IMG/VR virus record: IMGVR_UViG_3300025875_000013
Location: 4,583-68,582 of that record
Length of the DNA stretch: 64,000 nucleotides
Direction: 5' to 3' (one strand)
DNA from: a virus
Positions 24,693 to 25,041 of the stretch are shown here, in pieces (within the stretch, counting starts at the first letter, position 1; the number at the start of each line of letters is the position of its first letter). The position numbers and the translations under genes are program-made. The notes beneath the pieces are model-generated. The model did no database searches, was not told the DNA's origin, and saw nothing but the letters and a program-made list of their open reading frames with translations.

Positions 24693-24827
24693 TTTACGGA
24701 CAAAGTTAAACAGAGGCTTTTGGACAATTGCTCTACCAACTGAGCTATTAAGGCGTAAGCCCTAAACCAGATTCGAACTGGTGACCCATTGTTTGGATTG
24801 AAGTAACTCTATTTTTAGTACCGTAAA
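24693..24827 (-). ncRNA. YrlA-like Y RNA module Y: circularly permuted tRNA-like domain inside a leader/trailer stem
   Basis: Minus strand order: leader TTTACGG, AAATAGAG, GTTACTTCAAT. Then the 3' half ACAAT-GGGTC-ACCAG-TTCGAAT-CTGGT-TTAGGGC-T, linker TAC, and the 5' half GCCTTAA-TA-GCTC-AGTTGGTA-GAGC-A-ATTGT. Trailer CTCTGTTT then CCGTAAA. Acceptor strands pair 7/7. Anticodon-stem strands ATTGT/ACAAT pair 5/5. Leader and trailer form two helices (TTTACGG/CCGTAAA and AAATAGAG/CTCTGTTT). Confidence 0.6.
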
Positions 24828-24828
24828 G

Positions 24829-24903
24829 TAGCCCGTAGGGGATTTGAACCCATGGTTTCCAGAATGAAAATCTGGCGAATTAGGCCAACTATTCGAACGG
24901 GCC
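24829..24903 (-). tRNA. tRNA-Glu (anticodon UUC)
   Basis: Minus-strand cloverleaf. Acceptor GGCCCGT/ACGGGCT. D-arm (C)GAAT-AGTTGGCCTA-ATTC(G). Anticodon stem CCAGA/TCTGG, loop TTTTCAT (UUC). Variable AAAC. T-arm ATGGG-TTCAAAT-CCCCT. Discriminator A. Confidence 0.7.
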
Positions 24904-24909
24904 AAATAT

Positions 24910-25041
24910 TTTACGGAGATAATCTAAAAGGGAAATGTTTGCTGCTCTACCAACTGAGCTACCGAACCTGAATTCGGATAGGATTCGAACCTATGACCCG
25001 CCGATTAACAATCGAAGTAACCCTTTTATCGCTACCGTAAA
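24910..25041 (-). ncRNA. YrlA-like Y RNA module X: circularly permuted tRNA-like domain inside a leader/trailer stem
   Basis: Minus strand order: leader TTTACGG, TAAAAGGG, TTACTTCGAT. A hairpin TCGA-TTGTTAA-TCGG (Asn-like GUU loop). Then GGGTC, T-arm ATAGG-TTCGAAT-CCTAT, 3' acceptor CCGAATT, C, A. Then 5' acceptor GGTTCGG (pairs 7/7 with two G-U), TA, and D-arm GCTC-AGTTGGTA-GAGC. Trailer CCCTTTTA then CCGTAAA pairs with the leader. Confidence 0.55.

What the first reader, a model, noticed from the sequence alone, without database searches (positions are those of the whole stretch)
24693..25041. Covarying leader/trailer helices bracket each permuted module (Y-RNA-like long stem)
Both modules are flanked by an outer 7-bp inverted repeat TTTACGG...CCGTAAA. 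Directly inside lies a second 8-bp helix whose sequence differs between modules but stays complementary: TAAAAGGG/CCCTTTTA in X and AAATAGAG/CTCTGTTT in Y (one G-U). Compensatory change across paralogous copies is classical evidence for a selected RNA helix. It matches the Y-RNA design, in which the 5' and 3' segments form the Ro-binding stem.
Basis: seen in the sequence. Interest (0 to 1): 0.75.

Follow-up and report, generated by a model that had tools for sequence, protein, structure and literature searches.

The report
Phage Y RNA stems beside Ro60
The paired flanks are real, evolutionarily maintained RNA helices. They form the stem of tRNA-mimicking Y RNAs encoded just upstream of a phage Ro60/Rsr gene, which makes this a new example of an already described RNA–protein system, not a new kind of element.

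Summary
Observation confirmed. Both modules (X 25041-24910, Y 24827-24693, minus strand) have the 7-bp outer helix UUUACGG/CCGUAAA. Both also have an 8-bp inner helix that differs at three pairs between X and Y, and all three changes keep pairing.

The modules sit in one minus-strand array, in this order:
- a small ORF
- module X
- tRNA-Glu
- module Y
- a terminator

The array ends 68 nt upstream of a TROVE+vWA Ro60/Rsr gene. Rfam YrlA matches X (E 1.6e-8) and Y (E 3.6e-5), both below the gathering score.

All four modules share one "handle": outer helix, bulged U, 2 bp, a conserved internal loop (5' YGA / 3' UUNUCY), the inner helix closed by an invariant G:C, then UUACUUC. The same handle recurs next to Rsr homologues in many viral and Bacteroidota contigs, with different helix sequences in each module. 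In 38 modules, 16 of 17 pairs show double changes, and the covariation score is 1.01 against 0.23 in shuffles. Own-versus-foreign 3' strand controls separate cleanly.

Rsr binding itself is inferred, not shown. This is a new, somewhat divergent member of the known Y RNA/YrlA class. Interest is modest.

The parts
24910..25041 (-). Module X, a YrlA-like Y RNA of 132 nt. Parts: outer helix 25041-25035 / 24916-24910; bulged U 25034; 2-bp extension AG 25033-25032 / CU 24918-24917; internal loop CGA 25031-25029 / GAUUAU 24924-24919; inner helix UAAAAGGG 25028-25021 / CCCUUUUA 24932-24925; UUACUUC 25020-25014; 81-nt tRNA-like cargo 25013-24933 (V hairpin, T arm, closed acceptor-like hairpin, D arm).
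   Evidence: YrlA 44.8 bits, E 1.6e-8; MFE fold
24828..24903 (-). tRNA-Glu(UUC), with no encoded CCA. It lies 6 nt after X's 3' strand. Module Y starts immediately after ARAGORN's tRNA end (24828), two nt after the end given by Rfam's tRNA model (24829).
   Evidence: 54.6 bits
24693..24827 (-). Module Y, a YrlA-like Y RNA of 135 nt. Parts: outer helix 24827-24821 / 24699-24693; bulged U 24820; extension AC 24819-24818 / GU 24701-24700; loop UAA / AACUUU; inner helix AAAUAGAG 24814-24807 / CUCUGUUU 24715-24708; UUACUUC 24806-24800; 84-nt tRNA-like cargo with a 7-bp acceptor-like hairpin.
   Evidence: (YrlA 33.2 bits, E 3.6e-5)
24621..24688 (-). Module Z, a short (68 nt) Y RNA-like hairpin with the same handle and no tRNA-like domain. 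Parts: outer UUACAAG/CUUGUAA; U; GG/CC; loop UAA/AAUUUU; inner GAAUUGGG/CUCAGUUC; UUACUUC; 17-nt cargo.
   Evidence: (17/17)
24489..24616 (-). Module W, a divergent tRNA-like Y RNA of 128 nt with the same handle. Parts: outer AUUGCGA/UCGCAAU; U; AG/CU; loop UGA/GUUUU; inner AAAGA-U-GAG / CUCUCUUU with one bulge; UUACUUC. The cargo has a CUUCG/CGAAG hairpin, a short T arm (UUCAAAU loop), a closed acceptor-like hairpin and a D-like arm. It has no Rfam hit.
   Evidence: 15/17 without allowing the bulge; I1
24447..24480 (-). Intrinsic terminator hairpin (GGCGGUUCCG...CGGGCCGCC followed by U7) between the RNA array and rsr. Equivalent hairpins are visible by eye at the same place in L001, L002, L004, L005 and L006.
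   Evidence: fold -17.6 kcal/mol
22994..24421 (-). Ro60/Rsr orthologue (475 aa from the ATG at 24421) with TROVE and vWA domains. Its closest solved relative is Thermus phage phiLo Ro60.
   Evidence: (9KOP/9L5Y, E 3.8e-24)
25045..25179 (-). Conserved 44-aa ORF immediately upstream of module X, with a pattern that looks ribbon-helix-helix-like. It is probably on the same transcript.
   Evidence: no Pfam or PHROG hit
25206..25213 (-). TATATTTG, a match to the Bacteroidota -7 promoter box TAnnTTTG (consensus from general knowledge). It is the candidate promoter of the ORF plus Y RNA array. Similar boxes are visible upstream of the arrays in L001, L002 and L004.
   Evidence: inference only

Best explanation
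The two nested helices are the closing stem, or 'handle', of phage-encoded Y RNAs of the YrlA type.

Proposed pathway:
- A minus-strand transcript starts near 25200 and ends at the terminator at 24447.
- It carries a small ORF, then four Y RNA modules (X, Y, Z, W) with a tRNA-Glu between X and Y.
- The modules are separated by 4-6 nt A/U-rich spacers. They are presumably released by host tRNA-processing enzymes (RNase P and a 3' endonuclease at the tRNA) and by single-strand endonucleases.

In each mature RNA the 5' and 3' ends pair as follows: a 7-bp outer helix, a bulged U, 2 bp, a conserved asymmetric internal loop (5' YGA, 3' RNUUNU), then an 8-bp inner helix closed by an invariant G:C and followed by single-stranded UUAC.

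This stem-loop-stem is the constant part of every module. By analogy with characterised Y RNAs, it is the docking site for the Rsr ring encoded immediately downstream. The variable cargo would recruit a second factor (PNPase in characterised systems), letting the phage retarget RNA decay or quality control. In X, Y and W the cargo is a circularly permuted tRNA-like fold; in Z it is a short loop.

Shown: the helices, their covariation, the conserved loops, the tRNA-like domains, and the linkage to rsr.
Inferred: transcription limits, processing, Rsr binding, and effector recruitment.
For: - **Linkage.** A TROVE domain (3.6e-21) plus a weak vWA match identify an Rsr gene whose ATG at 24421 lies 68 nt below the last module, on the same strand.
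- **Rfam.** YrlA matches X at 44.8 bits (E 1.6e-8) and Y at 33.2 bits (E 3.6e-5), full length.
- **Folding.** MFE folds of all four modules give the same outer helix / bulge / 2 bp / loop / inner helix pattern.
- **Recurrence.** The same handle lies upstream of Rsr homologues of 49-76% identity in 8 IMG/VR loci and in Bacteroidota, Sphingobacteriales and Patescibacteria-labelled MAG contigs.
- **Motif-only retrieval.** A scan using the handle motif alone returned at least 119 viral stretches, and 27 of them carry an Rsr homologue within the fetched DNA.
- **Module-specific complementarity.** Own downstream sequence gives at least 16/17 pairs in 48% of 64 motif-defined sites, against 1.9% with foreign downstream sequence. 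For 17/17 the figures are 30% and 0.23%.
- **Covariation in 38 modules.** 97.4% of cells are paired and 16 of 17 pairs show double changes (258 cells). The covariation score is 1.009 against 0.229 for shuffles (0/500 reach it) and 0.13-0.23 for slid partners.
- **The 2-bp extension.** It switches A-U to G-C (33:5) and G-C to C-G in Y.
- **Independent structure prediction.** RNAalifold on a plain MAFFT alignment of 14 tRNA-type modules predicts both helices plus the T, acceptor-like and D stems, with 23 of 28 pairs compensatory.
- **Closest solved protein.** It is phiLo Ro60, which binds phage Yrl RNAs of stem-bulge-stem design through a CGAA motif in the bulge (PMC12135203).
- **Published precedent.** Chen 2014 (PMC4201824) describes YrlA near rsr in 22 phages and a Yrn2-tRNAAsp-Yrn1 polycistron. 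Wang 2018 (10.1101/312249) describes the Ro60-binding module plus tRNA-like module, with a conserved UA hinge.
Against: - No experiment shows that these RNAs are made, processed or bound by Rsr.
- Both Rfam scores are below the YrlA gathering threshold of 69 bits, and W and Z have no Rfam match.
- The published bacterial contact motif GNCGAAN0-1G is not strictly present. X has AGCGAU, W has AGUGAA, and Y and Z have only UAA at that place.
- phiLo's own Yrl region lacks the GUUACUUC motif. The analogy to the one biochemically tested phage system is therefore at the level of design, not sequence.
- The 38-module alignment was selected for at least 16/17 pairing, so its percentage paired is circular. 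Only the own-versus-foreign control and the RNAalifold run are free of that selection.
Confidence: 0.85

Rival explanations
1. The helices are mainly processing stems. Double-stranded flanks would be recognised by RNase III or would serve as end-protecting clamps, so that each module and the tRNA are excised from the polycistronic precursor. Rsr would recognise something else, such as the tRNA-like domain or the single-stranded UUACUUC.
For: - The modules are packed 4-6 nt apart in one array with a tRNA between them.
- The outer helix is identical in X and Y, so X's 3' strand can also pair with Y's 5' strand around tRNA-Glu (9/10 bp, I5).
- The stems would protect the ends from exonucleases whatever Rsr does.
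Against: - The handle is constant while the cargo changes completely between permuted tRNA-like, normal-order tRNA-like, short loop and a 170-210-nt domain. The handle is therefore the only element that could be common to one partner protein.
- Its internal loop is sequence-conserved on both strands and carries the CGA core of known Ro60-contact motifs.
- Helices of 7-8 bp interrupted by a loop are short for RNase III, as judged from general knowledge.
- The two roles are not mutually exclusive.
Confidence: 0.07
2. X and Y are circularly permuted tRNA genes, or remnants of tandem tRNA genes. The flanks would then be leader/trailer pairings used to mature a functional tRNA, or they would have no function.
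For: - T arm and D arm sequences are tRNA-like, and part of X gives a weak tRNA hit (18.4 bits, E 0.78).
- X's V hairpin has a 7-nt loop, UUGUUAA, that looks like an anticodon loop.
- Chen 2014 warns that tandem tRNAs can mimic YrlA hits.
Against: - ARAGORN finds only tRNA-Glu in this stretch.
- The segment between the T and D arms is a self-complementary hairpin that covaries at all 7 pairs (columns 66-72 with 92-98). That is not expected for the acceptor strands of two separate tRNAs.
- Module Z carries the same handle with no tRNA-like part.
- No splicing-endonuclease-type bulge-helix-bulge is apparent, and no CCA end can form without cleaving the closed hairpin.
- The linkage to rsr is not explained.
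Confidence: 0.03
3. The inverted repeats are chance features of AT-rich intergenic DNA, or a by-product of a recent duplication of X and Y.
For: X and Y are clearly paralogues with identical outer arms and D arms. The region is AT-rich, which makes short inverted repeats common.
Against: - A full 17/17 match arises in 0.23% of foreign pairings, against 3 of 4 modules in the window.
- The inner helices differ at three pairs, all compensated.
- The same two helices, with unrelated sequences, flank homologous modules in dozens of contigs.
Confidence: 0.01

Closest known systems
YrlA RNAs (Rfam RF02553) of Salmonella Typhimurium, Mycobacterium smegmatis and mycobacteriophages (Chen et al. 2014, PMC4201824; Wang et al. 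2018, 10.1101/312249)
   Same: - Encoded on the rsr strand within 4 kb of rsr.
- The 5' and 3' ends pair into a stem that carries the Ro60-binding module.
- A conserved UA (YUAY) hinge follows the stem.
- The effector domain is a circularly permuted tRNA-like fold (V hairpin, T arm, closed acceptor-like hairpin, D arm).
- X and Y carry the near-invariant D-arm sequence UAGCUCAGUUGGUAGAGC.
   Different: - Scores are below the Rfam gathering threshold (44.8 and 33.2 against 69 bits).
- The strict GNCGAAN0-1G motif is replaced by U-[A/G]G-YGA in an internal loop.
- Additional conserved elements, GUUACUUC and a 3' loop UUNUCY, are not visible in the Rfam consensus printed.
- The stem has a fixed 7 + 2 + 8 bp geometry with a bulged U.
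Deinococcus radiodurans Yrn2-tRNAAsp-Yrn1 locus upstream of rsr (Chen et al. 2014)
   Same: Several Y RNAs and a genuine tRNA are made as one polycistronic precursor upstream of rsr. One Y RNA is tRNA-like and another is a plain hairpin.
   Different: The window has four modules and tRNA-Glu, it is a phage and not a bacterium, and the sequences are unrelated.
Thermus phage phiLo Ro60 with Yrl1/Yrl2 (PMC12135203; PDB 9KOP, 9L5Y)
   Same: - Phage-encoded Ro60 with Y RNA-like genes directly upstream.
- The RNAs have a 5'-3' stem, internal bulge and stem, with CGA(A) in the bulge, and mutating CGAA lowers affinity 3-4 fold.
- phiLo Ro60 is the closest solved relative of the window's Rsr (E 3.8e-24).
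   Different: - phiLo's upstream region has no GUUACUUC motif.
- No tRNA-like domain is described for phiLo Yrl1 or Yrl2.
- The proteins share only about 24% identity.

Membership tests
Y RNA (Ro60/Rsr-associated ncRNA) | Encoded close to, and on the same strand as, a Ro60/Rsr (TROVE) gene (criterion of Chen 2014: within 4 kb) | tested here: met
   The array spans 25041-24489 and rsr spans 24421-22994, all on the minus strand.
Y RNA (Ro60/Rsr-associated ncRNA) | The 5' and 3' ends pair into a long stem interrupted by a bulge or internal loop | tested here: met
   Shown by folds, covariation in 38 modules, RNAalifold and the own-versus-foreign control.
Y RNA (Ro60/Rsr-associated ncRNA) | Conserved Ro60-contact motif on the 5' strand (GGUCCGA in vertebrates, GNCGAAN0-1G in bacteria, CGAA in phiLo) | tested here: inconclusive
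   The family consensus at the corresponding place is U[A/G]G[C/U]GA(A). X has AGCGAU, W has AGUGAA, and Y and Z have only UAA. The strict GNCGAAN0-1G pattern is not matched in any of the four window modules.
Y RNA (Ro60/Rsr-associated ncRNA) | Physically bound and stabilised by Ro60/Rsr | not testable with these tools
   This needs EMSA or RIP with the phage Rsr.
YrlA (Rfam RF02553) | Score at or above the family's gathering threshold (69 bits) | tested here: not met
   X scores 44.8 bits and Y 33.2 bits. W and Z have no hit at E <= 10.
YrlA (Rfam RF02553) | tRNA-like effector domain in the order T arm, closed acceptor-like hairpin, D arm, with a conserved UA hinge and conserved D/T sequences | tested here: met
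   Shown by the cmscan alignments of X and Y, by covarying T, acceptor-like and D stems in 14 homologues, and by UUAC after the inner helix in all modules. W has the same order but divergent arms.
Circularly permuted tRNA genes that mature into functional tRNAs | A complete cloverleaf including the anticodon arm after joining the ends, plus a processing junction in the leader/trailer pairing | tested here: not met
   ARAGORN finds no such gene here. The acceptor-like stem is a closed covarying hairpin, and the place of the anticodon stem is taken by the handle.
Tandem tRNA genes scoring as false YrlA (caveat in Chen 2014) | T arm of one annotated tRNA followed by D arm of the next, each with its own acceptor partner | tested here: not met
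   Only tRNA-Glu is detected between the modules. No upstream D/anticodon arm or downstream anticodon/T arm flanks X or Y.

The most novel reading that the evidence does not exclude
The window may belong to a distinct and so far undescribed Y RNA subfamily, apparently widespread in phages of Bacteroidota (including crAss-like phages) and other hosts.

It would be defined by a constant handle: 7 bp, bulged U, 2 bp, YGA/UUNUCY loop, 8 bp ending in G:C, then UUACUUC. Phages appear to plug interchangeable cargo into this handle:
- permuted tRNA mimics
- normal-order tRNA-like units with anticodon arms
- short loops
- a conserved 170-210-nt domain with no Rfam match

On this reading, arrays of up to six such RNAs would let one phage Rsr be tethered to several different host factors.
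Probability: 0.4. Interest if true: 0.5.

Novelty: new member of a known kind. Interest (0 to 1): 0.3.

Why it matters
This locus adds a clean, covariation-supported example of a phage Ro60-Y RNA locus, with four Y RNAs and an embedded tRNA. It also shows that Rfam's YrlA model under-detects this branch.

The constant handle motif gives a simple way to find such RNAs in viral metagenomes. The same motif suggests specific mutations for testing what a phage Rsr recognises.

It does not open a new class of element. The stem-plus-tRNA-mimic design, its position upstream of rsr and its presence in phages were all published between 2014 and 2025.

Tried and rejected
- **RNAduplex.** I paired each 5' strand against 420 nt downstream. 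It often picked spurious distant partners in AT-rich DNA, so I abandoned it.
- **First module finder.** It required at least 7/8 plus 6/7 pairs with flexible loops. It was too permissive: a reversed-5'-strand control still found partners for 131 of 300 anchors. I replaced it with the 17-pair score and own-versus-foreign controls.
- **MAFFT alignments of the joined flanks and of the short modules (A1, A4).** The 1-nt loop length difference was pushed to the 3' end, which misregistered the outer helix. I solved this by padding the loops with N to equal length (A2). I did not build a family-specific covariance model for this reason.
- **RNase P RNA idea.** The large cargo in L005/L006 contains GAAAAGUCCGG and ACAGAAUUC, so I asked whether it was RNase P RNA-like. 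Rfam gave no match at E <= 0.01 on the loci or at E <= 10 on the element, so I dropped the idea.
- **G·U versus A·C counts as a strand test (46 vs 4).** I do not use this as evidence, because the selection of modules counted G·U as paired.
- **Literature gaps.** The supplementary tables of Chen 2014 and the 2020 Annual Review on bacterial Ro60 are not held. I could not check whether any Bacteroidota phage was in their list.
- **Promoter and terminator scan.** The sigma-70 scan gave no more hits than shuffles. The generic terminator scan missed the bulged terminator, which I folded separately.

Full report
**1. What is in the sequence**

On the minus strand, 25041-24489 is a tightly packed array:
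- module X, 25041-24910
- tRNA-Glu(UUC), 24903-24828 (ARAGORN; Rfam tRNA 54.6 bits)
- module Y, 24827-24693
- module Z, 24688-24621
- module W, 24616-24489

An intrinsic terminator follows at 24480-24447 (fold -17.6 kcal/mol). Next comes the ATG (24421) of a 475-aa protein. It has a TROVE domain (E 3.6e-21) and a weak Ro60-type vWA match (E 3.7e-05, below Pfam's cutoff). That makes it an Rsr/Ro60 orthologue.

The window is a tailed phage. It encodes terminase, portal, tape measure and primase/helicase. Its closest Rsr relatives are in IMG/VR viral contigs (49-76% identity) and in Bacteroidota, Sphingobacteriales and Chitinophagales MAG contigs.

**2. Check of the observation**

The repeat finder places the perfect arms as follows:
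- TTTACGG/CCGTAAA at 24693-24699 / 24821-24827
- TTTACGG/CCGTAAA at 24910-24916 / 25035-25041
- TAAAAGGG/CCCTTTTA at 24925-24932 / 25021-25028

Y's inner helix, AAAUAGAG/CUCUGUUU, pairs 8/8 on the minus strand with one U·G. On the plus strand that position would be an A·C mismatch, so the pairing is strand-specific. It lies on the strand of tRNA-Glu and rsr.

X and Y differ at three inner-helix pairs (U-A/A-U, A-U/U·G, G-C/A-U), and all three stay paired.

The helices are not contiguous. Between them lie a bulged U, two further pairs and an asymmetric internal loop. The two extra pairs are AG/CU in X and AC/GU in Y, which is a fourth compensated change. RNAfold reproduces this outer / bulge / 2-bp / loop / inner pattern for X, Y and Z, and a similar outer / loop / inner pattern for W.

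**3. Identity**

Searched at a permissive threshold, Rfam's YrlA ("Y RNA-like") model aligns end to end with X (44.8 bits, E 1.6e-8) and Y (33.2 bits, E 3.6e-5). Both are below the gathering score of 69, which is why the default scan reported nothing.

The alignments show a T arm, a closed acceptor-like hairpin and a D arm, in that order. This is the circularly permuted tRNA-like effector module described for YrlA (PMC4201824; 10.1101/312249). The published design pairs a Ro60-binding module, formed by the 5' and 3' ends, with a tRNA-like module joined through a conserved UA. Here every module has UUAC directly after the inner helix.

**4. A constant handle**

All four window modules share one architecture. 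So do the modules upstream of Rsr homologues in L001-L008 and in L128-L131. In 5' to 3' order it is:
- a variable 7-nt strand
- U-[A/G]G-[C/U]GA
- a variable 7 nt plus an invariant G
- UUACUUC (or AUACUUC), followed by the cargo
- C plus a variable 7 nt
- a loop ending UUNUC[U/C]
- a variable 7-nt strand

Scanning IMG/VR with only the two 5' motifs returned at least 119 stretches. Many are expected by chance for a 15-base pattern. Even so, 27 of the stretches fetched by motif alone contain an Rsr homologue of 27-79% identity within the fetched DNA. The motif and the protein are therefore genuinely linked.

The handle is also present, unannotated, upstream of the TROVE gene of crAss-like phage cr111_1 (L136 1759-1826). 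The 634-kb uncultured phage LR745206 carries it as well. It is absent from phiLo's upstream region.

**5. Covariation**

I ran three.

(a) *Own versus foreign 3' strands.* I defined sites by the 5' motifs alone in Rsr-containing loci and scored 17 possible pairs (7 + 2 + 8). I compared each site's own downstream sequence with the downstream sequence of modules from other loci, using an identical flexible search. At least 16/17 was reached by 48% of 64 sites with their own sequence and by 1.9% with foreign sequence. For 17/17 the figures were 30% and 0.23%. X, Y and Z each score 17/17. W scores 15/17, or a full helix if one bulge is allowed.

(b) *Pair counts in 38 modules.* I took non-redundant modules scoring at least 16/17 and kept them in register by N-padding the loops (A2). 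The results were 97.4% paired cells, 16 of 17 pairs with changes on both sides and 258 such cells. The covariation score was 1.009, against 0.229 ± 0.020 in shuffles (0/500 reach it) and 0.13-0.23 with partners slid by 1-3 columns. Individual pairs use up to five or six pair types. The pair closing the inner helix is invariant G:C. The first pair of the 2-bp extension switches A-U to G-C (33:5). The percentage paired is inflated by the selection, but tests (a) and (c) are not affected by it.

(c) *RNAalifold on an unfitted alignment.* On an unedited MAFFT alignment of 14 full-length tRNA-type modules, including X and Y, RNAalifold independently predicts the outer helix and the inner helix. It also predicts the T arm, a 7-bp acceptor-like hairpin and the D stem. 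Twenty-three of 28 pairs are compensatory.

**6. Mechanism**

The handle is the only element common to modules with very different cargo. Its internal loop is conserved on both strands, and its 5' strand carries CGA/UGA. Published Ro60 contacts lie at the equivalent place:
- GGUCCGA in Xenopus
- GNCGAAN0-1G in bacteria
- protection of G7, G8, C9, G11 and A12 in D. radiodurans Yrn1 (PMC4201824)
- CGAA in the internal bulge of phiLo Yrl2, where single substitutions lower affinity 3-4 fold (PMC12135203)

The window's Rsr is most similar, among solved structures, to phiLo Ro60 (E 3.8e-24).

I therefore take the helices plus loop to be the Rsr docking module and the cargo to be the effector-binding module. 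PNPase is the known partner in Deinococcus, in Salmonella and, in vitro, for phiLo.

The tRNA inside the array has a precedent in the D. radiodurans Yrn2-tRNAAsp-Yrn1 precursor (PMC4201824). RNase P and 3' processing at tRNA-Glu would define X's 3' end and Y's 5' end. Transcription limits, processing and binding are inferences.

**7. Rivals**

A pure processing-stem role is possible and not exclusive. It does not explain the conserved loop or the linkage to rsr.

Permuted or tandem tRNA genes are excluded for three reasons. The acceptor-like hairpin is closed and covaries. Only one real tRNA is detected in this stretch. Module Z has the handle but no tRNA-like part.

Chance is excluded.

**8. 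Novelty**

Phage Y RNAs next to Rsr, the 5'/3' stem, the permuted tRNA-like module, multiple Y RNAs per locus and co-transcription with a tRNA are all published. This locus is a new member of that kind.

Four features are somewhat distinctive. The Rfam score is sub-threshold. The strict GNCGAA motif is replaced by U-RG-YGA in a loop. The extra conserved UUACUUC and 3' UUNUCY elements are present. And the cargo carried by the same handle in related contigs is diverse. I found no paper describing this handle, but the library is incomplete.

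Noticed in passing
window 24621-24688 and 24489-24616 (minus strand): Two further Y RNA-like modules lie between Y and the terminator. Z is 68 nt with no tRNA-like domain. W is 128 nt with a divergent tRNA-like cargo and no Rfam hit. Both carry the same handle, so the array holds four Y RNAs and not two.
   Followed up: yes
window 25045-25179 (minus strand); L001 ~2399-2563, L002 ~2540-2677: A conserved small ORF (44 aa here: MTRFGFLIEQKWLDKLEEEKEKYGQSTVSSFIRYIIIKFFDKKD) sits directly upstream of the first Y RNA. Its pattern looks ribbon-helix-helix-like. 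In L001 and L002 its stop codon is the UAG of the handle's UAGCGA motif, so the ORF and the first Y RNA overlap. It has no Pfam or PHROG hit.
   Followed up: partly
window 25206-25213 (minus strand): TATATTTG matches the Bacteroidota -7 promoter box TAnnTTTG, about 27 nt upstream of the small ORF. Similar boxes (TAAATTTG, TATATTTG, TAATTTTG) precede the arrays in L001, L002 and L004. This fits the Bacteroidota MAG relatives found.
   Followed up: no
window 24821-24830 with 24907-24916: X and Y have identical outer helices, so X's 3' strand and Y's 5' strand are complementary (9/10) and bracket tRNA-Glu. This is a possible alternative pairing in the precursor. L129 and L130 also reuse outer-helix sequences in non-adjacent modules.
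   Followed up: no
L131 207-340; L116 2187-2321; L117 5052-5191; L126 minus strand 6442-6564: In some contigs the same handle encloses a tRNA-like unit in normal order (D arm, anticodon arm, T arm) and not the permuted YrlA order. ARAGORN calls the L131 unit tRNA-His (228-302). The UUCG at the end of the conserved UUACUUCG appears to start the first helix of whatever cargo follows.
   Followed up: partly
L005 2696-2921, L006 2660-2923, L134 (LR745206.1) ~2125-2415: In three jumbo-phage contigs the second module upstream of rsr carries a 170-210-nt cargo inside the handle. It has conserved blocks (GGUGAAAAAGUCCG, GUGAGAUGGUCACU, AUCGGCAGAGUUUCGGGAGAAUUCUUUGUA) and no Rfam match at E <= 10. Its identity is unknown.
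   Followed up: partly
L136 (MT774387.1, crAss-like phage cr111_1) 1759-1826: An unannotated short handle-type Y RNA candidate (GCUCAA-UAGUGA-UAUAUGUG-UUACAUC...) lies about 700 nt upstream of the phage's TROVE gene. tblastn found Rsr homologues in 94 phage records, 20 of them Bacteroides phages.
   Followed up: partly
window 24995-25013 (minus strand), module X: X's V hairpin (UCGA-UUGUUAA-UCGG) has a 7-nt loop with U at position 2 and AA at positions 6-7, like an anticodon loop. Homologues have AUGCUAA, CUUUUAA and UUGCUAA. Rfam's tRNA model aligns this hairpin plus the T arm weakly (18.4 bits).
   Followed up: no
window 24749-24766 (minus strand), module Y: Y's acceptor-like hairpin has 7 bp (UUAGGGC/GCCUUAA) and a 4-nt loop. 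Chen 2014 reports that the 7-bp stem of M. smegmatis YrlA makes it an RNase P substrate that is then CCA-tailed. Y might therefore be cleaved into halves.
   Followed up: no
Streptomyces phages Annadreamy, Faust, Limpid and others (H11-H21): The tRNA-like core of module X (window 24940-25001) matches unannotated ~65-nt stretches in about ten Streptomyces phage genomes at 81-83% identity. These are possibly YrlA-type RNAs there too. I did not examine them.
   Followed up: no
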